DNA from: a virus
Lineage: Duplodnaviria; Heunggongvirae; Uroviricota; Caudoviricetes
Length of the DNA stretch: 5,004 bases
Virus record (IMG/VR): IMGVR_UViG_3300014523_000031
Direction: 5' to 3' (one strand)
Under the pieces are notes generated by a model. The model made no database searches and was not told the origin of the DNA. It saw only the letters and a program-made list of their open reading frames with translations. This document shows positions 1 through 5,004 of this stretch, in pieces. Position 1 is the stretch's first letter; the number at the start of each line of letters is the position of its first letter. The position numbers and the translations under genes were made by a program.

Positions 1-77
1 ATATCTCCTTCGTTACCGATTAATTCTTTCATCTGACGAATGAATTCTTCGTCTGACCAGTTATCTGTAAAACTCAT
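1..77 (-). CDS. Hypothetical protein, N-terminal part only (MSFTDNWSDEEFIRQMKELIGNEGD...); continues past window start
   Basis: ATG at 77-75 on minus, open to position 1. Its start overlaps the stop of the upstream cIII-like ORF (ATGA, plus 74-77), suggesting translational coupling. Absent from the ORF track because it is truncated. Product not recognised. Confidence 0.45.
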   Translation of the reverse strand, partial: MSFTDNWSDEEFIRQMKELIGNEGD

Positions 78-244
78 GGACGGCCTTGTTGTTTCAAAAT
101 ATCCCAAAGCTTTTCGAGCAAACTTTTCATTCTTGGTTGTTTAAAGTCTGCTCCGGTTAAAATGTTTTTTCGTGAATGCTGTACCGATAAAATCGGGTTG
201 AAAGGGCGAACCGATGCCGCCCCTGCAATAGCGAACTGTTGCAT
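74..244 (-). CDS. cIII: CIII-like protein (lambda CIII family, FtsH inhibitor that stabilises CII), 56 aa
   Basis: Hand translation gives MQQFAIAGAASVRPFNPILSVQHSRKNILTGADFKQPRMKSLLEKLWDILKQQGRP. The N-terminus (MQ.FAIAG) and C-terminal SLLE...DIL.Q.G segment resemble lambda CIII as I recall it. AAGGAG Shine-Dalgarno 6 nt upstream of ATG 244. Reading frame stays open upstream into the N gap, so the true start is not certain. Below the ORF-track size cutoff. Confidence 0.6.
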   Translation of the reverse strand: MQQFAIAGAASVRPFNPILSVQHSRKNILTGADFKQPRMKSLLEKLWDILKQQGRP

Positions 245-298: not shown

Positions 299-414
299 NN
301 NNNNNNNNNNNNNNNNNNNNNNNNNNNNNNNNNNNNNNNNNNNNNNNNNNNNNNNNNNNNNNNNNNNNNNNNNNNNNNNNNNNNNNNNNNNNNNNNNNNN
401 NNNNNNNNNNNNNN
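299..414. other. Assembly gap (116 consecutive N)
   Basis: Direct observation of an N run; true length and content unknown. Confidence 0.99.
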
Positions 415-441
415 CAGTGCAGTGTTTATTCTGTTGTTAGT

Positions 442-457
442 GCCAAAAATAAAGGCC
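442..457. repeat. 16-bp exact direct repeat gccaaaaataaaggcc, copy 1 (copy 2 at 968-983)
   Basis: Identical 16-mers at 442-457 and 968-983, each forming the U-tract and proximal stem of the terminator just 3' of a minus-strand accessory gene. Confidence 0.8.
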
Positions 458-470
458 GACTATGCGGCCT
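442..470 (-). terminator. Rho-independent terminator downstream of the 151-aa ORF
   Basis: On the minus strand: 6-bp GC-rich stem (plus 453-458 aggccg / 465-470 cggcct), 6-nt loop, then TTATTTTTGG (complement of plus 442-452). Sits 5 nt after the stop at 475. Confidence 0.6.
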
Positions 471-474
471 GAAA

Positions 475-930
475 TTACTTAACCAATGATGCTGCATATT
501 CGATAAGGTAAAGCTTTGGGGCCAGCCAAATTTTTAACCAAGTCATATTGGTTACTACACCAATAATAAAAAATCCCCACAGAGTCAAAACTCCAACCAA
601 TGGCATGATAAGAAGATTAATATCACCTTTGCTATCCCAAACCATTGTCGGCCTGTATTTGGGATTTCCTTTCTCCCATGAATATCCTTCATCACCGATT
701 TTACCTGTCTCAACTCTTTGGCACTGCTTCTTCATAAACCAGAAAACCAGTGGGATTGTTAGAATGGCGATGGCCATTAATGTTTTAATCAGACTGTCAA
801 CCATATTCCATAGCAGCAACTGATGAACAACATCAGGAATCTGTGCCTGGCTAAATGAAACAGCCGCGTCTATTCCATTACTGGCTTTTTGCAGTAGTTC
901 TACGAGAATCTTGTTTGCTTGTTCTTCCAT
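475..930 (-). CDS. Hypothetical small membrane protein, 151 aa, two predicted transmembrane segments; function unknown
   Basis: ATG 930 with AAGGTGA Shine-Dalgarno (complement of plus 934-940). Hydrophobic stretches LMAIAILTIPLVFWFM and LLIMPLVGVLTLWGFFIIGVV flank a charged loop. Has its own downstream terminator. The antisense ORF 548-823 looks compositionally junk-like. Confidence 0.75.
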   Translation of the reverse strand: MEEQANKILVELLQKASNGIDAAVSFSQAQIPDVVHQLLLWNMVDSLIKTLMAIAILTIPLVFWFMKKQCQRVETGKIGDEGYSWEKGNPKYRPTMVWDSKGDINLLIMPLVGVLTLWGFFIIGVVTNMTWLKIWLAPKLYLIEYAASLVK

Positions 931-970
931 ATATCACCTTGATTTTAATAAGCATGAAATTATTTACGGC
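921..970. repeat. About 50-bp imperfect direct repeat at the 5' boundary of the accessory genes, copy 1 (copy 2 at 1231-1280)
   Basis: Ungapped hand alignment of 921-970 against 1231-1280 gives 36 of 50 identical positions, in the same register relative to the two start codons (930 and 1240). Covers the first codons, the SD and about 40 nt upstream. Confidence 0.6.
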
Positions 971-999
971 CAAAAATAAAGGCCACCATCAGGCAGCCT
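968..999 (-). terminator. Probable rho-independent terminator downstream of the 83-aa ORF
   Basis: Minus-strand hairpin AAGGCUGCC-UGAU-GGUGGCCUU (9-bp stem with two G-U pairs) followed by UAUUUUUGG. Contains copy 2 of the 16-bp repeat and overlaps the stop codon at 989-991. Confidence 0.45.
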
Positions 1000-1240
1000 T
1001 GTTGTAAATGTTGCAGGTATCAAGTAAGTAATTAGATGGAGCGCCATAAATTATGAATTCATCGTTTGTCGGGTCCATCTCCATCTCTTGGCCTATTGCC
1101 ATTCTTGCGTCAGTGTCATCAGAGGCGAAGCATAAAACAGCCCACGCACCCATTGTTTTAAAAAGAACTGCAATTGGCTGTGGTTTTACTGAATTTGCGT
1201 TAGCGCGAAAATCACAAATCGCACTTTCATGAAATTCCAT
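989..1240 (-). CDS. Hypothetical soluble protein, 83 aa; function unknown
   Basis: ATG 1240 with GAGGTGAG Shine-Dalgarno (complement of plus 1244-1251). No hydrophobic segments. Sits between the tL1-like terminator and the 151-aa membrane protein gene. Confidence 0.65.
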   Translation of the reverse strand: MEFHESAICDFRANANSVKPQPIAVLFKTMGAWAVLCFASDDTDARMAIGQEMEMDPTNDEFIIYGAPSNYLLDTCNIYNKAA

Positions 1241-1280
1241 ATCTCACCTCAATCGTAATAAGCTGGAATTGATTTTCCGC
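1231..1280. repeat. Copy 2 of the 5'-boundary repeat (see 921-970)
   Basis: See copy 1; 36 of 50 identities by hand alignment. Confidence 0.6.
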
Positions 1281-1356
1281 GTTGCTTCTGGCGAGCAACA
1301 CAAGTCACACCCATTTCACTGCGTGGCTTGCTGTAATAAATTAGGTTAGTTCAGAC

Positions 1357-1379
1357 AATAAAAAACCCACCGAAGTGGG
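1357..1379 (-). terminator. Rho-independent terminator (tL1-like) in the leftward operon
   Basis: Minus-strand hairpin CCCAC-UUCG-GUGGG (plus 1366-1379) followed immediately by UUUUUUAUU (complement of plus 1357-1365). On the plus strand the T-run is displaced about 9 nt from the stem, so the minus orientation is favoured. Confidence 0.7.
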
Positions 1380-1435
1380 CTATGACCATTTTTTATTTGG
1401 ATTTCGTTGGTGAGCGTGATTAACAACTCTGTGCA

Positions 1436-1717
1436 TTACATCCTCATATTTTTCATCTTCAATTTTTCGACATTGCGAGGAAATGGTGTTGCTAATGCTT
1501 TGTCAACTTTGTCCATTGGTTCTTCATTAATCTTATATTCAGGACCGTCATCTATAGCATTAAATCCAGGTGTTACACCGTTTTTTAATGCATATGCTAT
1601 CCTTTTTTCCCATCTCGCTATTCTCCTCCTGTCTCGAGATGTAAGACCTCTATCAGATACTTTTCTGTTTTGTCCGCGGTCAGGATTAACATAAATAGTC
1701 TTTTTCACCATAAGCAT
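1436..1717 (-). CDS. Hypothetical basic protein, about 93 aa, immediately downstream of and coupled to N
   Basis: The ORF-track start at 1723 is a TTG codon. The first ATG (1717-1715) lies 2 nt after the N stop codon (1722-1720). Charged, arginine-rich composition (SRDRRRIARWEKR). Stop TAA 1436-1438. The antisense plus ORF 1407-1694 is low-complexity hydrophobic and rejected. Not recognised. Confidence 0.5.
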   Translation of the reverse strand: MLMVKKTIYVNPDRGQNRKVSDRGLTSRDRRRIARWEKRIAYALKNGVTPGFNAIDDGPEYKINEEPMDKVDKALATPFPRNVEKLKMKNMRM

Positions 1718-1719
1718 AC

Positions 1720-2025
1720 TCAATAAGCACCGTACGGTAGTTTACTGTACAATTTTATTTTTTGGACTGCATGTATTTTGTTTCCTAACGGGTTTGAATC
1801 TTTGTAATAAATACTTCTATTTTTTCGAACGACTTCTTCTTTCTTCTTGCAGCAAAGGCTTCCTAGTGATGCTGCTTTGTCTGCTCTGACGCAACCAGAG
1901 AGCTTTAGCGCAATTTTTCGCGCCAGTGCTTCATTACTGCGTCGATCGGCAATAAGTTCTGCTCTGCGAGCTTTGTAGCGGCTTTTTGCCGTACCTTTGG
2001 ATTCTTTCCAGACAATGGTTACCAT
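1720..2025 (-). CDS. N: Transcription antitermination protein N, phage-21-type arginine-rich motif
   Basis: Product MVTIVWKESKGTAKSRYKARRAELIADRR... carries the boxB-binding motif GTAKSRYKARRAELIA known from phage 21 N. AAGGAG Shine-Dalgarno 6 nt upstream of ATG 2025. The ORF-track start at 2055 adds 10 residues with no SD, so I place the start at 2025. Lies directly downstream of PL and nutL. Confidence 0.9.
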   Translation of the reverse strand: MVTIVWKESKGTAKSRYKARRAELIADRRSNEALARKIALKLSGCVRADKAASLGSLCCKKKEEVVRKNRSIYYKDSNPLGNKIHAVQKIKLYSKLPYGAY

Positions 2026-2135
2026 GATGGTCTCCTTTAAGTGGCTTTGGCGCATGACGCGTCGAGGTGCTTATCTTCTCGATCGCTGTCTTGCAGCTGC
2101 AATTCGCGCCATCCCCAAAACCACTCAAGTTCTGG

Positions 2136-2175
2136 TCTCAACGGTTAGGTTGAGAGTCCGTCGATGTTAAAGAGC
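2136..2175 (-). promoter_or_regulatory. nutL: nutL: boxA plus phage-21-type boxB hairpin
   Basis: Minus-strand boxA GCTCTTTAACA (complement of plus 2165-2175), then boxB UCUCAAC-CUAACC-GUUGAGA (plus 2136-2155; 7-bp perfect stem, 6-nt loop). Same boxA 11-mer and same CUAACC loop as nutR. Confidence 0.85.
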
Positions 2176-2221
2176 CTGCCAATCTGTTCCGTTTGGCTTC
2201 CAGCGTCCTGCTGATGGCTTA

Positions 2222-2275
2222 AATTTAAGACTTCTTAATTTATTGGTCAAGTGCATTTTTGAAGAAAACTTAATT
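2222..2275 (-). promoter_or_regulatory. PL promoter with OL operators (P22-type operator sequences)
   Basis: Minus-strand -35 TTGACC (plus 2245-2250), 17-nt spacer, -10 TAAATT (plus 2222-2227). 18-bp operator-like sites at 2223-2240 (ATTTAAGACTTCTTAATT) and 2258-2275 (TTTGAAGAAAACTTAATT) fit the A.T.AAG....CTT.A.T pattern shared with the OR sites. Confidence 0.6.
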
Positions 2276-2311
2276 TTATGGGCGTGAATTTAGTTTGTCT
2301 TTGATTTTTAA

Positions 2312-2340
2312 CGGGAAATAAAAAAGGGGCGAAAGCCCCT
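2312..2340 (-). terminator. Rho-independent terminator ending the cI transcript
   Basis: Minus-strand hairpin AGGGGC-UUUC-GCCCCU (plus 2325-2340) followed by UUUUUAUUU (complement of plus 2312-2324). Begins at the cI stop codon. No rex-like genes lie between cI and PL. Confidence 0.7.
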
Positions 2341-2990
2341 TAAGGAAGGTTTGCTAGCTTGGCATCAACGACAACGCCAATGATTTTACAGTTCCCATTG
2401 ATTTCAATCATTGGGTATTGTGGATTGAGTGGTTTCAGGAATTTTCTACCGGCATCAATAACTAACTTTTTGAATGTCGCCTCGTTTTCTCCTTCAAGTT
2501 TGGCGACTACCAGCTTTCCATTACGTGGTTCGACTTCTGGGTCGACGAGAATAATCATCCCCTCAGGAATACTCAGTCCTGCCGGGGCAGTCATTGAATC
2601 GCCTTTAACGTCGAGCCAAAAAGAGTCTTCAGAACAATCTACCGTTGTGTCGTACCAGTTATCTATTGCACGCCTATGATATGGCTCTACAGCTTCCATC
2701 CAACATCCTGCGCTTACCCAACTAATTAGAGGATACGAACCTCTTGGATCATGCCTGCTGTGATAGGCAATGTTTGAAAGACTATCCTCTCCTTTCAACA
2801 GGTAATCAGGGGAGCACTGCAAAGCCTTGGCTAAGGCCAATAGGTTTTCGCCATTGGGCTCAGTTTCAGATCGCTCCCATTGGGAAATAGCAACATTAGA
2901 CACGCCAACCATCTTGCCAAGGGCAGCCTGCCTAATCTTGAGTTCTTTTCTGCGAGCGCGAATACGCTCACCCATCAGTTGTGTATTCAT
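2340..2990 (-). CDS. cI: Phage repressor CI (P22 C2-type): N-terminal HTH domain plus C-terminal S24/LexA-like autopeptidase domain
   Basis: 216 aa. HTH segment QAALGKMVGVSNVAISQWERS; Ala-Gly cleavage site in WVSAGCW; catalytic Ser in GDSM and Lys in VVAKL. Sequence matches my recollection of the P22 c2 repressor along its length. Transcribed divergently from cro across the operator region. Confidence 0.96.
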   Translation of the reverse strand: MNTQLMGERIRARRKELKIRQAALGKMVGVSNVAISQWERSETEPNGENLLALAKALQCSPDYLLKGEDSLSNIAYHSRHDPRGSYPLISWVSAGCWMEAVEPYHRRAIDNWYDTTVDCSEDSFWLDVKGDSMTAPAGLSIPEGMIILVDPEVEPRNGKLVVAKLEGENEATFKKLVIDAGRKFLKPLNPQYPMIEINGNCKIIGVVVDAKLANLP

Positions 2991-3056
2991 AGTTAAGACA
3001 TCTTAAATAAACTTGACTTAAGATTCCTTTGGTAGATAATTTAAGTGTTCTTTAAT
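2991..3056. promoter_or_regulatory. OR operator region: three 18-bp P22-type operator sites (OR3, OR2, OR1); PRM expected here on the minus strand
   Basis: Sites at 2991-3008 (AGTTAAGACATCTTAAAT), 3016-3033 (ACTTAAGATTCCTTTGGT) and 3039-3056 (ATTTAAGTGTTCTTTAAT) share the A.T.AAG....CTT.A.T pattern with 7 and 5 bp between them. PRM -10/-35 elements were not resolved confidently. Confidence 0.8.
3013..3040 (+). promoter_or_regulatory. PR promoter
   Basis: -35 TTGACT (3013-3018), 16-nt spacer, -10 GATAAT (3035-3040). Overlaps OR2 and OR1 and sits about 30 nt upstream of cro. Confidence 0.75.
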
Positions 3057-3070
3057 TTCGGAGCGAGTCT

Positions 3071-3256
3071 ATGTACAAAAAAGATGTTATTGACCACTTC
3101 GGAACCCAGCGTGCTGTTGCTAAAGCACTAGGCATTAGCGATGCAGCAGTCTCTCAGTGGAAAGAAGTTATCCCAGAGAAAGACGCCTATCGATTGGAAA
3201 TCGTTACAGCTGGCGCCCTGAAGTATCAAGAAAGTGCTTACCGCCAAGCGGCATAA
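3071..3256 (+). CDS. cro: Cro repressor (P22 Cro-type), 61 aa
   Basis: GGAG Shine-Dalgarno at 3060-3063, ATG 3071. HTH segment QRAVAKALGISDAAVSQW. Sequence matches my recollection of P22 Cro. First gene after PR. Confidence 0.95.
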   Translation: MYKKDVIDHFGTQRAVAKALGISDAAVSQWKEVIPEKDAYRLEIVTAGALKYQESAYRQAA

Positions 3257-3263
3257 GCAAATT

Positions 3264-3303
3264 GCTCTTTAACAGTTCTGGCCTTTCACCTCTAACCGGG
3301 TGA
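3264..3303 (+). promoter_or_regulatory. nutR: nutR: boxA plus phage-21-type boxB hairpin
   Basis: boxA GCTCTTTAACA at 3264-3274 (identical to the nutL boxA), then boxB UCACCU-CUAACC-GGGUGA at 3286-3303 (6-bp stem including one U-G pair, same loop as nutL). Confidence 0.85.
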
Positions 3304-3349
3304 GCAAACATCAGCGGCAAATCCATTGGGTGTGCCGCTATAACTCAAT

Positions 3350-3394
3350 ATCAATATAGGAAAATTAACAAATGGCACAAGCAAGCTACAGCAA
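3350..3394 (-). promoter_or_regulatory. Candidate PRE (establishment promoter) with a CII-binding direct repeat TTGC-N6-TTGC
   Basis: Minus strand reads TTGCTGTAGCTTGC (complement of plus 3381-3394), the canonical CII recognition geometry. It lies within the first codons of cII and points leftward toward cro and cI, as in lambda. The -10 element is not well defined. Confidence 0.55.
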
Positions 3395-3668
3395 GCCAAC
3401 ACAGCGAGAAATTGATCGCGCTGAAACTGATTTACTCATCAACCTGTCAACGCTTACCCAGCGCGGTCTGGCAAAGATGATTGGCTGTCATGAATCGAAG
3501 ATAAGCAGAACGGACTGGAGATTTATTGCTTCGGTCTTGTGTGCTTTCGGAATGGCATCAGACATCAGTCCGATTAGCAGGGCTTTTAAGTATGCGCTTG
3601 ATGAAATCACAAAGAAAAAATCCCCGGCCGCCACCGAGGATTTTAAGCAAATTGATATGCAATTCTGA
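3372..3668 (+). CDS. cII: CII-family transcriptional activator (lambda CII / P22 C1 analog), 98 aa
   Basis: C-terminal KKKSPAATEDFKQIDMQF parallels the lambda CII C-terminus (NKKRPAATERSEQIQMEF as I recall it). HTH-like segment TQRGLAKMIGCHESKISR. AGGA Shine-Dalgarno upstream of ATG 3372. Located after cro and nutR. Confidence 0.9.
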   Translation: MAQASYSKPTQREIDRAETDLLINLSTLTQRGLAKMIGCHESKISRTDWRFIASVLCAFGMASDISPISRAFKYALDEITKKKSPAATEDFKQIDMQF

Positions 3669-3700
3669 GGGAATTACTGGATCAATCCACAGGAGTAATT

Positions 3701-3862
3701 ATGACAAAACGTCGTAAGAAATACCAGGAAAAAGAAGAGATTCGACACCCTGATTCACCTGAGGGATTAGTGGTAGCCGCAGCAAATAACAGGGCGTTCG
3801 CAGAGCGCCTTGTTGGTGTTTACAGACTAGCCAAAGCAGGGGTGAAACATGGGCGTCGTTAA
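3701..3862 (+). CDS. Possible small ORF, 53 aa, basic N-terminus ([53 protein letters not shown])
   Basis: AGGAG Shine-Dalgarno at 3691-3695 with 5-nt spacing to ATG 3701. Stop TAA 3860-3862 overlaps the start of the O-like gene by 14 nt in another frame. Absent from the ORF track because of size. Not recognised. Confidence 0.4.
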   Translation: MTKRRKKYQEKEEIRHPDSPEGLVVAAANNRAFAERLVGVYRLAKAGVKHGRR

Positions 3863-4670
3863 GTTAGCTGATTACAGGCCTCAACTGGAGGTCGTGGAGC
3901 ATCGCGTGGCAGATACCGAAGATGGTTTCATGCGCGTTGCTAACGAGATTATCGACAGTCTGCTGATGGCTGATTTAACCGTCCGGCAGTTGAAGGTGAT
4001 GCTCGCTATCATGCGCAAGACATACGGATTCAATAAGCCGATGGATCGACTCACAAACACGCAGATAGCAGCCATGACAGGTATTCATCACACTCATGTT
4101 TGCGCTGCCAAGCGCCAGCTTATCGAGCGTAAATTCCTCATTGCTGATGGCGTGAAAATCGGAGTGAACAAGGTGGTTTCTCAGTGGATTAGCCAGGACA
4201 GCTTAACATTAGCTAAAACAGCTAATAAAACATTAGCCAAGTCGGCTAATGGGTATAAGCCAAGTCAGCTAAACACAAAAGACAATATACAAAAGACAAT
4301 AAATACAAATACCCCCTTACCCCCTAACGGGGGCGGCGATGGGCAGGTTAAACCTGAACGTCGCAAGGCAGAACGAATCGACTACGAATCCTTCCTGAGC
4401 GCCTACAACGCCGAAGTCGGTGACAGACTTCCACACGCTGTTGCGGTCAACGAGAAACGCAAACGCCGCCTGAAGAAAATCATCCCGCAACTGAAAACGC
4501 CAAACGTGGACGGTTTCAGAGCGTATGTCAGGGCGTTTGTACATCAGGCCAAGCCGTTTTACTTCGGAGACAACGACACTGGCTGGACGGCAGATTTTGA
4601 TTACCTGCTGAGGGAAGATTCGTTAACGGGAGTACGGGAAGGGAAGTTTGCAGACAGGGGGATTGCATGA
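3849..4670 (+). CDS. Replication initiation protein, lambda O / P22 gp18 type
   Basis: 273 aa. N-terminal region ([56 protein letters not shown]...) has the hallmarks of the phage O N-terminal DNA-binding domain. Low-complexity linker ([13 protein letters not shown]) coincides with ori-like iterons in the DNA. Stop TGA overlaps the ATG of the downstream helicase (ATGA at 4667-4670). Confidence 0.9.
4187..4273. repeat. ori-like iterons: four copies of an approximately 20-bp repeat with internal dyad symmetry, inside the O-like gene
   Basis: Copies start at about 4187, 4207, 4231 and 4254, with a core near ATTAGCCAAGTCGGCTAA. The best copy is TTAGCC-AAGTC-GGCTAA at 4233-4249, whose two arms are reverse complements. 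Copies 3 and 4 share 16 of 20 positions by hand alignment. Confidence 0.7.
4274..4333. promoter_or_regulatory. A-rich tract and GC palindrome following the iterons (putative origin unwinding region)
   Basis: 4274-4312 is strongly A-rich on the plus strand and contains a 12-bp direct repeat caaaagacaata (4276-4287 and 4290-4301). It is followed by the palindrome CCCCC-TAAC-GGGGG at 4320-4333. This mirrors the iteron / AT-rich / palindrome layout of lambda ori. Confidence 0.6.
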
Positions 4671-5004
4671 GACAGGATATCGAAGCGAGCGTTATCGGTG
4701 GCCTGCTGATTGGTGGATTAACACCAACCGCCAGCGACGTTCTGGCAACGCTAGAGCCGGAAGCGTTTTCAATTCCGCTCTACCGGAAAGCCTTCGAGGC
4801 TATCCGCAAGCAGGCGAGAAACAGAAACCTAATCGACGCGCTGATGGTTGCCGAGGCGTGCGGAGAGGAGCATTTCACGTCAATCCTGATGACCAGCAAG
4901 AACTGCCCGAGTGCCGCAAACCTGAAGGGATATGCCGGAATGGTCGCGGATAACTATCACCGCCGTCTGGTGCTGGAAATCATGGATGAAATGCGTGAAC
5001 CAAT
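4667..5004 (+). CDS. Replicative DNA helicase, DnaB family (P22 gp12-like), N-terminal part; continues past window end
   Basis: Hand translation from ATG 4667 gives [18 protein letters not shown]...[20 protein letters not shown]...[30 protein letters not shown], which matches the DnaB N-terminal domain pattern (compare E. coli DnaB ...SVLGGLML...NTPSAANISAYADIV...). The track ORF 4648-4953 is in a different frame, Arg/Trp-rich, and rejected. Confidence 0.88.

What the first reader, a model, noticed from the sequence alone, without database searches (positions are those of the whole stretch)
1720..3303. Mosaic early region: P22-type immunity cassette combined with phage-21-type N and nut sites
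cI, cro and the operator sequences match P22 (c2, cro, operator pattern A.T.AAG....CTT.A.T). The N protein carries the phage-21 arginine-rich motif, and both nutL and nutR boxB hairpins carry the same CUAACC hexaloop rather than a P22-type boxB. So the N/boxB pair is internally consistent but of different ancestry from the flanked immunity genes. The recombination joints should lie between nutL and OL, and between cro and nutR. Unlike lambda, cI is followed directly by a terminator and PL, with no rex-type genes.
Basis: partly seen in the sequence, partly recalled or inferred. Interest (0 to 1): 0.45.

Follow-up and report, generated by a model that had tools for sequence, protein, structure and literature searches.

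The report
Ordinary phage 21 immunity region
This stretch is the long-known immunity and antitermination region of coliphage 21 sitting in a lambdoid prophage, so the supposed new P22/phage-21 mosaic is phage 21's own native arrangement and is ordinary.

Summary
There is a P22-like repressor and Cro, 18-bp operators, an N protein with the phage-21 arginine-rich motif, two boxB hairpins with CUAACC loops, and a terminator directly after cI.

Coliphage 21 (OL657228) carries the whole block contiguously. cI (651/651 nt), cro (186/186), OL/PL, nutL and nutR are identical, and only 4 differences occur between window 1880 and 3603. Phage mEp235 matches all of 1720-3303 at 99.7%, and 438 of 5426 complete E. 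coli genomes hold at least 80% of it.

The "P22-type" cassette is therefore imm21, which is a close homologue of P22 immC (C2 93.5% aa, Cro 98.4% aa, 83.7% nt). P22 homology runs only from 2161 to 3274. It stops between boxA and boxB inside each nut site, not between nutL and OL.

Relative to phage 21, the real joints in this window lie inside N (about 1838-1879) and inside cII (about 3604). To the left, an HK022-type block (N 3' end plus nun) is fused onto the 21-type N, and nun carries a private frameshift.

Verdict: already known, low interest.

The parts
1720..2025 (-). N antitermination gene, 101 aa. The 5' two-thirds are phage-21 type, including the arginine-rich motif (with E27D). The last ~38 codons are HK022/mEp235 type.
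   Evidence: ORF. An AAGGAG sequence lies 6 nt upstream of the ATG (read). Identity is 74.5% to phage 21 N and 98% to mEp235 N. The motif matches PDB 1NYB at 21/22 positions. There is a weak Pfam N_peptide hit. Window 1363-1837 matches HK022 at 96.4%.
2136..2155 (-). nutL boxB hairpin: UCUCAAC-CUAACC-GUUGAGA.
   Evidence: Folds at -9.5 kcal/mol, z = -3.1. Identical to phage 21, where the corresponding position is annotated as the nutL stem-loop.
2166..2175 (-). nutL boxA (GCTCTTTAAC). This is the last element conserved with P22 on the left side.
   Evidence: Alignment. P22 homology starts at 2161. Phage 21 annotates boxA-L at the equivalent position.
2222..2250 (-). PL promoter: TTGACC, 17-nt spacer, TAAATT. 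The transcription start is near 2215, placed by the phage 21 annotation.
   Evidence: Promoter scan. Phage 21 annotates the pL start at L001 2913, which corresponds to window 2215.
2223..2304 (.). OL operators. OL1 is at 2223-2240 (exact consensus) and OL2 at 2258-2275 (1 mismatch). OL3 at ~2287-2304 is degenerate and is placed by the phage 21 annotation only.
   Evidence: Pattern search. Phage 21 annotation. OL1 and OL2 are identical in P22.
2324..2341 (-). Intrinsic terminator immediately after the cI stop codon: AAGGGGC-UUUC-GCCCCUU followed by a U-run.
   Evidence: Terminator scan. Fold at -12.3 kcal/mol, z = -2.9. Phage 21 annotates a terminator at the same place. P22 has an equivalent hairpin.
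2340..2990 (-). cI repressor of phage 21, 216 aa, LexA-like (HTH_3 plus S24 peptidase domains).
   Evidence: 651/651 nt identical to phage 21 and 81.1% nt to P22 c2. At protein level 100% to phage 21 and 93.5% to P22 C2. Pfam domains.
2991..3056 (.). OR operators with the divergent promoters. OR3 is at 2991-3008, OR2 at 3016-3033 and OR1 at 3039-3056. PR has its -35 TTGACT at 3013-3018 and its -10 GATAAT at 3035-3040.
   Evidence: Pattern search and promoter scan. The alignment shows 1 difference from phage 21 (at 3034) and 3 from P22.
3071..3256 (+). cro, 61 aa.
   Evidence: 186/186 nt identical to phage 21 and 90.3% nt to P22. 60/61 aa identical to P22 Cro. Pfam P22_Cro.
3264..3273 (+). nutR boxA (GCTCTTTAAC). 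This is the last element conserved with P22 on the right side.
   Evidence: Alignment. P22 homology ends at 3274.
3285..3304 (+). nutR boxB hairpin: UUCACCU-CUAACC-GGGUGAG.
   Evidence: Folds at -7.6 kcal/mol, z = -2.0. Identical to the annotated phage 21 nutR stem-loop.
3372..3668 (+). cII. It is phage-21 type up to ~3603 and HK97 type beyond. The CII box TTGC-N6-TTGC for pRE lies at 3381-3394 (-). This gene holds the right-hand joint of the imm21 block.
   Evidence: Pfam Phage_CII. The mismatch map shows differences from phage 21 clustering from 3604 onward. HK97 matches 3342-5004 at 98.1%. The pRE and CII-site positions come from the phage 21 annotation and were read.
1436..1717 (-). nun-like gene (HK022 Nun, ~98% identical) just downstream of N, truncated here by a -1 frameshift near 1462. 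Context only, not part of imm21.
   Evidence: Annotated as Nun in mEp235. The 1-nt deletion is seen against mEp235. Protein alignment. tblastn against HK022.
1286..1347 (-). Untranslated remnant of the phage-21-type 3' end of N, displaced by the HK022-type block.
   Evidence: 93.5% identical to phage 21 N codons at L001 2455-2516. Sequence and translation IYYSKPRSEMGVTCVARQK.

Best explanation
Window 1720-3303 is the immunity and early-control region of coliphage 21 (imm21), resident in a lambdoid prophage, and it works as the textbook lambdoid switch.

- The LexA-like CI repressor binds three 18-bp operators in each of OL and OR. This shuts off PL and PR and autoregulates PRM.
- Cro binds the same operators during lytic growth.
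- Transcripts from PL and PR carry nutL and nutR, each made of boxA plus a boxB hairpin with a CUAACC loop.
- N is translated from the PL transcript. Its arginine-rich motif binds boxB and, with the host Nus factors, makes RNA polymerase resistant to downstream terminators.

The cI, cro and operator part is a close homologue of P22 immC. The N and boxB part is unrelated to P22 gene 24 and its boxB. That contrast is a property of phage 21 itself, not of a new recombinant.

Shown here: sequence identity, ORFs, motifs and hairpins. Inferred from established phage 21, P22 and lambda biology: binding, repression and antitermination.
For: - Phage 21 (OL657228) matches window 1803-3708 as one contiguous alignment at 97.7%.
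- cI, cro, OL/PL, the terminator, nutL and nutR are 100% identical to phage 21. Only 4 differences occur between 1880 and 3603.
- mEp235 matches 1286-3710 at 99.63%. mEp235, Kapi1, DE3, lambda imm21, HK629 and phiv205-1 all hold the block.
- 438 of 5426 complete E. coli genomes hold at least 80% of it, 184 of them at 99% identity or more.
- The phage 21 record annotates OL1-3, the OR sites, boxA-L and boxA-R, the nutL and nutR stem-loops, the pL start and the terminator at the equivalent positions.
- The N motif matches the solved phi21 N peptide/boxB complex 1NYB at 21/22 positions.
- The operator pattern is strongly enriched, and both boxB hairpins fold with the CUAACC loop.
- Similarity to P22 is confined to 2161-3274 at 83.7%. 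P22 gp24 is 20% identical to N, and P22 C1 is 21% identical to cII.
Against: - The last ~27 codons of N (1720-1802) do not match phage 21 N. They match the mEp235/HK022 type, so N is not strictly the phage 21 allele.
- The N arginine-rich motif carries E27D, whose effect on boxB binding is untested.
- No function was tested experimentally here.
Confidence: 0.97

Rival explanations
1. One reading: a novel, fairly recent recombinant in which a P22-derived immunity cassette was placed between phage-21-derived N/nutL and nutR, with joints between nutL and OL and between cro and nutR.
For: P22 similarity is limited to 2161-3274, with N and boxB unalignable to P22.
Against: - The immunity genes are 100% identical to phage 21 and only 81-90% nt identical to P22.
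- There is no identity step against phage 21 anywhere from 1880 to 3603.
- The same arrangement occurs in phage 21, mEp235, Kapi1, DE3 and hundreds of E. coli genomes.
- The breaks against P22 lie inside the nut sites, not where predicted.
Confidence: 0.02
2. An ancient module exchange. Somewhere in the ancestry of phage 21 or of P22, a block running boxA-PL/OL-cI-OR-cro-boxA was exchanged between lineages that had unrelated N/boxB and cII modules. The conserved boxA sequences served as the homology for crossing over. This complements the best explanation rather than competing with it, and it concerns phage 21 versus P22, not this window in particular.
For: - Nucleotide identity to P22 steps from unalignable (about 25-45% in the forced alignment) to about 80-98% exactly at boxA of nutL, and back down just after boxA of nutR.
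- N versus gp24 is 20% identical and cII versus C1 is 21%, whereas cI versus C2 is 93.5%.
Against: - The direction and timing of the exchange cannot be inferred from three genomes.
- Strong selection for N-boxB specificity divergence could in principle sharpen an apparent boundary without any exchange.
- From my own recollection (papers not held, not read here), the comparison is old: Poteete et al. 1980 and Franklin 1985. The Poteete reference appears in the reference lists seen.
Confidence: 0.75
3. Laboratory contamination: the sequence derives from lambda DE3 or lambda imm21 constructs (for example BL21(DE3) DNA) rather than from a natural prophage.
For: DE3 and lambda imm21 match 1803-3303 at 98.9%.
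Against: - The flanks are not lambda/DE3. On the left are the HK022-type nun block and accessory ORFs. On the right are an HK97-type O gene and a DnaB-type helicase at 98.1%.
- Natural E. coli isolates carry near-identical prophages covering up to 88% of the window.
Confidence: 0.01

Closest known systems
Coliphage 21 immunity region (imm21; GenBank OL657228, also carried by lambda imm21, DE3 and HK629)
   Same: The order is identical: N, nutL, PL/OL, terminator, cI, OR, cro, nutR, cII. cI, cro, the operators and both nut sites are 100% identical, and only 4 differences occur in 1724 bp.
   Different: - The last ~38 codons of N are replaced by an HK022/mEp235-type end followed by nun.
- The cII 3' end and the replication genes are HK97 type rather than lambda type.
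- There are single-base differences at 1945 (E27D in N), 2094, 3034 and 3361.
Enterobacteria phage mEp235 (JQ182731), and likewise Kapi1 and the E. coli HS prophage
   Same: All of window 1286-3710 matches at 99.63%, including the N variant, the nun block and the displaced N remnant. The finding region matches at 99.7-99.8%.
   Different: - nun is intact in mEp235 and frameshifted in the window.
- Window 415-1285 (two accessory ORFs) and the replication genes differ.
Salmonella phage P22 immC region (c2, cro, OL, OR; BK000583)
   Same: - The repressor and Cro are homologous (93.5% and 98.4% aa).
- OL1, OL2 and OR1 are identical, and OR2 and OR3 are nearly so.
- boxA is the same, and a terminator follows the repressor gene directly with no rex genes.
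   Different: - Nucleotide identity is only 83.7%.
- P22 gene 24 and its GACAA-loop boxB hairpins are unrelated to N and the CUAACC boxB here.
- c1 is unrelated to cII at sequence level.
- P22 also has sieB/esc next to gene 24.
Phage lambda N/nut antitermination system
   Same: The logic is the same: an N protein with an arginine-rich motif, boxA plus boxB nut sites just downstream of PL and of cro, and Nus-dependent terminator read-through (established knowledge).
   Different: boxB has a hexaloop (CUAACC) rather than lambda's GAAAA pentaloop. The N sequence differs, and lambda has rexA and rexB after cI.

Membership tests
imm21 (immunity/early control region of coliphage 21) | cI and cro of phage 21 sequence | tested here: met
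   cI is 651/651 nt and 216/216 aa identical. cro is 186/186 nt and 61/61 aa identical to OL657228.
imm21 (immunity/early control region of coliphage 21) | Phage 21 operators in OL and OR (18-bp sites) with PL, PR and PRM in the same layout | tested here: met
   The OL/PL segment is 145/145 identical and OR is 79/80. There are 5 consensus sites against 0.34 expected. Positions coincide with the OL657228 annotation.
imm21 (immunity/early control region of coliphage 21) | N with the phi21 arginine-rich motif, and cognate boxB hairpins (CUAACC loop) in nutL and nutR | tested here: met
   The motif matches PDB 1NYB at 21/22 positions. nutL and nutR are identical to phage 21. Caveat: the C-terminal quarter of N is not phage-21 type.
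imm21 (immunity/early control region of coliphage 21) | Immunity specificity: homoimmune with phage 21 / lambda imm21 | not testable with these tools
   This needs a plating test. It is expected to be met because the repressor and operators are identical.
P22 immC plus gene 24 early region | c2, cro and operators homologous to P22 | tested here: met
   93.5% and 98.4% aa identity. OR is 77/80 identical. OL1 and OL2 are identical.
P22 immC plus gene 24 early region | Gene 24 antiterminator and GACAA-loop boxB | tested here: not met
   N is 20% identical to gp24. The boxB hairpins differ in stem and loop.
P22 immC plus gene 24 early region | c1 activator of P22 type | tested here: not met
   cII is 20.8% identical to P22 C1 and 88.9% identical to phage 21 cII.
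Novel mosaic (a combination not present in any known phage) | No known genome carries the N/nut and cI/cro combination contiguously with uniform identity | tested here: not met
   Phage 21, mEp235, Kapi1, DE3, lambda imm21, HK629 and phiv205-1 carry it, as do 438 complete E. coli genomes. There is no identity step against phage 21.
LexA-like (S24) phage repressors | N-terminal HTH domain plus C-terminal S24 autopeptidase domain | tested here: met
   Pfam HTH_3 at 6.4e-17 (residues 10-64) and Peptidase_S24 at 1.2e-30 (residues 87-208).

The most novel reading that the evidence does not exclude
The only possibly undescribed point lies just left of the finding. An HK022-type block (last ~38 codons of an N gene, then nun, then a terminator; window 1363-1837) is fused in frame onto a phage-21-type N. 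The displaced 21-type N 3' end survives as a remnant at 1286-1347.

HK022, which has no N, retains the same N 3' remnant upstream of nun. This suggests that nun travels as a cassette attached to an N 3' end and that HK022 descends from an ancestor carrying both N and Nun.

In this window nun carries a private -1 frameshift. If that is real, the prophage has lost Nun-mediated exclusion of lambda. I could not establish whether this has been described before.
Probability: 0.3. Interest if true: 0.2.

Novelty: already known. Interest (0 to 1): 0.05.

Why it matters
It matters very little beyond correct annotation. The region is the classical imm21 module, used in lambda imm21 hybrids and in the DE3 prophage of BL21(DE3), and it is common in E. 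coli prophages.

The case does illustrate a trap for a sequence-only reader. Phage 21's repressor, Cro and operators are so close to P22's that they read as "P22", while its N and boxB are distinctive. The native phage 21 arrangement therefore looks like a chimera.

The step-like loss of P22 similarity exactly at boxA on both sides is a clean textbook example of lambdoid module boundaries, but it is not new.

Tried and rejected
- Rfam gathering-threshold scan of the window and the mEp235 locus found no family hits. There is no curated model for nut or boxB here.
- Hairpin z-scores on long flanks were uninformative. A 61-nt nutL piece gave z = 0.08 and an alternative stem. My first nutL boxB coordinates (2126-2145) were 10 nt off, and a fold of 2122-2149 showed no hairpin. 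The corrected position is 2136-2155. As a result, the feature rows labelled "nutL boxB" and "spacer" are mislabelled. Identity to phage 21 is 100% across the whole interval regardless.
- I searched the literature for an open-access statement that phage 21 and P22 share operator and immunity specificity. This confirmed only that the reference Poteete et al. [quoted passage not shown] The paper itself is not held. The co-specificity statement therefore rests on my recollection plus the near-identity of the operators and repressors shown here.
- A whole-window search found no complete E. coli genome or phage record covering the full 5 kb. The best were 88% coverage at 98.1% and 62% at 98.4%. The exact source prophage was not identified, and this does not affect the finding.
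- A tblastn hit of N residues 22-101 on the HK022 putL region at 58.8% is driven by the near-identical C-terminal ~38 codons. I do not claim that putL derives from N.
- The large protein, structure and metagenome searches were not run, because DNA identity to annotated phages was decisive.
Full report
**What is in the window**

The 5004-base window is the early region of a lambdoid prophage. Read left to right on the + strand it contains:
- a cIII-like ORF at 74-244 (-);
- a masked run of N at 299-414;
- two accessory ORFs, at 475-930 and 989-1240 (-);
- a nun-like gene at 1436-1717 (-);
- N at 1720-2025 (-), then nutL and PL/OL;
- a terminator, then cI at 2340-2990 (-);
- OR with PRM and PR, then cro at 3071-3256 (+) and nutR;
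- cII at 3372-3668 (+);
- a small ORF, an O-type replication gene at 3849-4670, and the start of a DnaB-type helicase.

**Checking the observation**

- cI is a 216-aa protein with HTH_3 and Peptidase_S24 domains. Cro hits Pfam P22_Cro.
- They are 93.5% and 98.4% identical to P22 C2 and Cro.
- The operator pattern ANTNAAGNNNNCTTNANT occurs 5 times with at most 1 mismatch, only in the two control regions, against 0.34 expected by chance.
- N residues 8-29 match the phi21 N peptide of PDB entry 1NYB at 21 of 22 positions.
- nutL boxB (2136-2155, - strand) and nutR boxB (3285-3304) each fold into a 7-bp stem closing a CUAACC hexaloop. Each is preceded by boxA, GCTCTTTAAC.
- P22's boxB hairpins carry GACAA loops and do not align.
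- A terminator hairpin with a T-run (2324-2341, - strand) abuts the cI stop codon, and there is no rex-like ORF.

**What it is**

A megablast of 1720-3303 against 50,697 phage records returned phage mEp235 at 99.7% over the full length and Kapi1 at 99.6%. It also returned coliphage 21 itself, lambda imm21, DE3 and HK629 at about 99% over 93-95% of the query.

A direct comparison with phage 21 (OL657228) gives one contiguous alignment, window 1803-3708, at 97.7%. Broken down by feature:
- cI is 651/651 identical and cro is 186/186.
- The OL/PL segment, the terminator and both nut sites are 100% identical.
- OR is 79/80.

The mismatch map shows only four differences between 1880 and 3603, at 1945, 2094, 3034 and 3361. 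Differences cluster at 1803-1879 and from 3604 onward.

The OL657228 annotation places OL1-3, the OR sites, boxA-L and boxA-R, the nutL and nutR stem-loops, the pL start and the post-cI terminator at positions that map exactly onto the window. The region is therefore the imm21 module.

It is also common. Of 5426 complete E. coli genomes, 438 hold at least 80% of it, 184 of them at 99% identity or more. The E. coli HS prophage matches at 99.8%.

**Relation to P22**

P22 (BK000583) aligns only with window 2161-3274, at 83.7%. By feature, identity to P22 is 81% for cI, 96% for OR, 90% for cro and 81% for the PL/OL segment. Left of 2161 and right of 3274 the sequences are unalignable.

The alignments show where similarity ends. 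On the left it ends a few bases beyond boxA of nutL, on the boxB side. On the right it ends just after boxA of nutR. The discontinuity against P22 is real, but it sits between boxA and boxB inside each nut site, not between nutL and OL.

OL1, OL2 and OR1 are identical in P22 and in the window. OR2 and OR3 differ by 2 and 1 bases. P22 also has a terminator directly after c2, so the "no rex" layout is common to P22 and phage 21.

From my own knowledge, the similarity of the P22 and phage 21 operators and repressors is classical (Poteete, Ptashne, Ballivet and Eisen 1980). I could verify only that this reference exists; the paper is not held. The complete phage 21 and lambda imm21 genomes were published in 2022 (PMC9119081).

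**Verdict on the interpretation**

That is what was found. The immunity genes are phage 21's own: 100% identity to phage 21 against 81-90% to P22. There is no P22-derived cassette and no new mosaic.

What survives is narrower:
- the correct identification of the parts;
- the old observation that, compared with P22, phage 21 shares the segment from boxA to boxA but not N/boxB or cII.

An ancient exchange bounded by boxA is a reasonable evolutionary reading of that contrast. I rate it about 0.75, with the direction unknown. It concerns phage 21 versus P22 in general.

**How it works**

This is inferred from the established biology of lambda, phage 21 and P22. CI(21) dimers bind OL1-3 and OR1-3, repressing PL and PR and regulating PRM. 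RecA-stimulated self-cleavage through the S24 domain induces the prophage. Cro then occupies the same sites. N is made from the PL transcript. Its arginine-rich helix binds the CUAACC boxB hairpins in the nutL and nutR RNAs and, together with boxA and the Nus factors, converts RNA polymerase to a terminator-resistant form. cII acts at pRE, where a TTGC-N6-TTGC box lies at 3381-3394. None of these activities was tested here; only sequence identity to the characterised system was.

**Real module joints in this window, relative to phage 21**

Right joint: inside cII at about 3604. Beyond it the sequence is HK97 type, with 3342-5004 matching at 98.1%.

Left joint: inside N.
- Window 1363-1837 matches HK022 at 96.4%. 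That block holds the last ~38 codons of an N gene, then nun, then a terminator at 1364-1381.
- It is fused in frame to the phage-21-type 5' part of N, with the crossover at about 1838-1879.
- The displaced 21-type 3' end of N persists as an untranslated remnant at 1286-1347. It is 93.5% identical to the phage 21 N codons encoding IYYSKPRSEMGVTCV.
- HK022, which has no N, keeps the same N 3' remnant upstream of nun.
- The N-nun tandem also occurs in mEp235, mEpX1, Kapi1, PA28 and Stx1a phages.

nun frameshift: in the window nun lacks one A of an A-run (near 1462) relative to mEp235. This truncates the protein and removes the C-terminal ~30 residues. None of the 219 E. coli genomes holding the block gave a perfect match, and all 12 listed hits are 518 nt against 517 in the window. 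The frameshift therefore appears private to this sequence, although only the listed rows were inspected. It may be a homopolymer sequencing error.

**Conclusion**

The object is the already-known imm21 region. Interest is low.

Noticed in passing
window 1436-1717 (-), deletion near 1458-1462: A nun gene about 98% identical to HK022 Nun sits immediately downstream of N. Relative to mEp235 and HK022 it has lost one A of an A-run. This frameshifts the ORF (91 aa from the ATG at 1711, against 112 aa annotated in mEp235) and removes the C-terminal ~30 residues ending in KKWS. No perfect match was found in complete E. coli genomes, and all 12 listed hits are one base longer. It may be a homopolymer sequencing error or a genuine pseudogene.
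   Followed up: partly
window 1286-1347 (-) and 1363-1837: An HK022-type block (N 3' end, nun, terminator) is fused in frame to the phage-21-type N. The displaced 21-type N 3' end remains as a remnant encoding IYYSKPRSEMGVTCVARQK. Both N 3' ends begin at the same GTAATAAAT (IYY codons).
   Followed up: partly
L006 (HK022 AF069308) 2381-2506: HK022, which lacks N and uses put sites, retains an in-frame remnant of the last ~38 codons of an N gene directly upstream of nun. It is 96% identical to the window's N 3' end. This suggests descent from an ancestor with both N and nun. I did not check whether this has been described.
   Followed up: no
window 1945 (N codon 27): The arginine-rich motif of N reads AELIADRR instead of AELIAERR (E27D). 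It differs in this from phage 21, from mEp235 and from the 1NYB peptide.
   Followed up: no
window 3034: There is a single-base difference one nucleotide upstream of the PR -10 hexamer, just outside OR2. The window has A, as P22 does, while phage 21 and mEp235 have G.
   Followed up: no
window 299-414: A 116-base run of N (masked or unresolved sequence) lies between the cIII-like ORF and the 151-aa membrane-protein ORF. The flanks align to mEp235 L005 1202-1249 and 1375-1430, an intergenic stretch there. Rfam found nothing in that locus.
   Followed up: partly
L001 (phage 21 OL657228) 3038-3688 (-): The phage 21 record annotates cI as 573 nt (190 aa) from an internal Met, which would cut off part of the HTH domain. 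The full ORF is 651 nt (216 aa), the same length as P22 c2 and identical to the window's cI.
   Followed up: partly
window 475-930 (-) and 989-1240 (-): Two accessory ORFs in the PL operon have no Pfam hit: a 151-aa ORF whose translation has hydrophobic stretches, so probably a membrane protein, and an 83-aa ORF. This segment is absent from mEp235 and phage 21 and is present in only some related prophages. It is the most variable part of the window.
   Followed up: no
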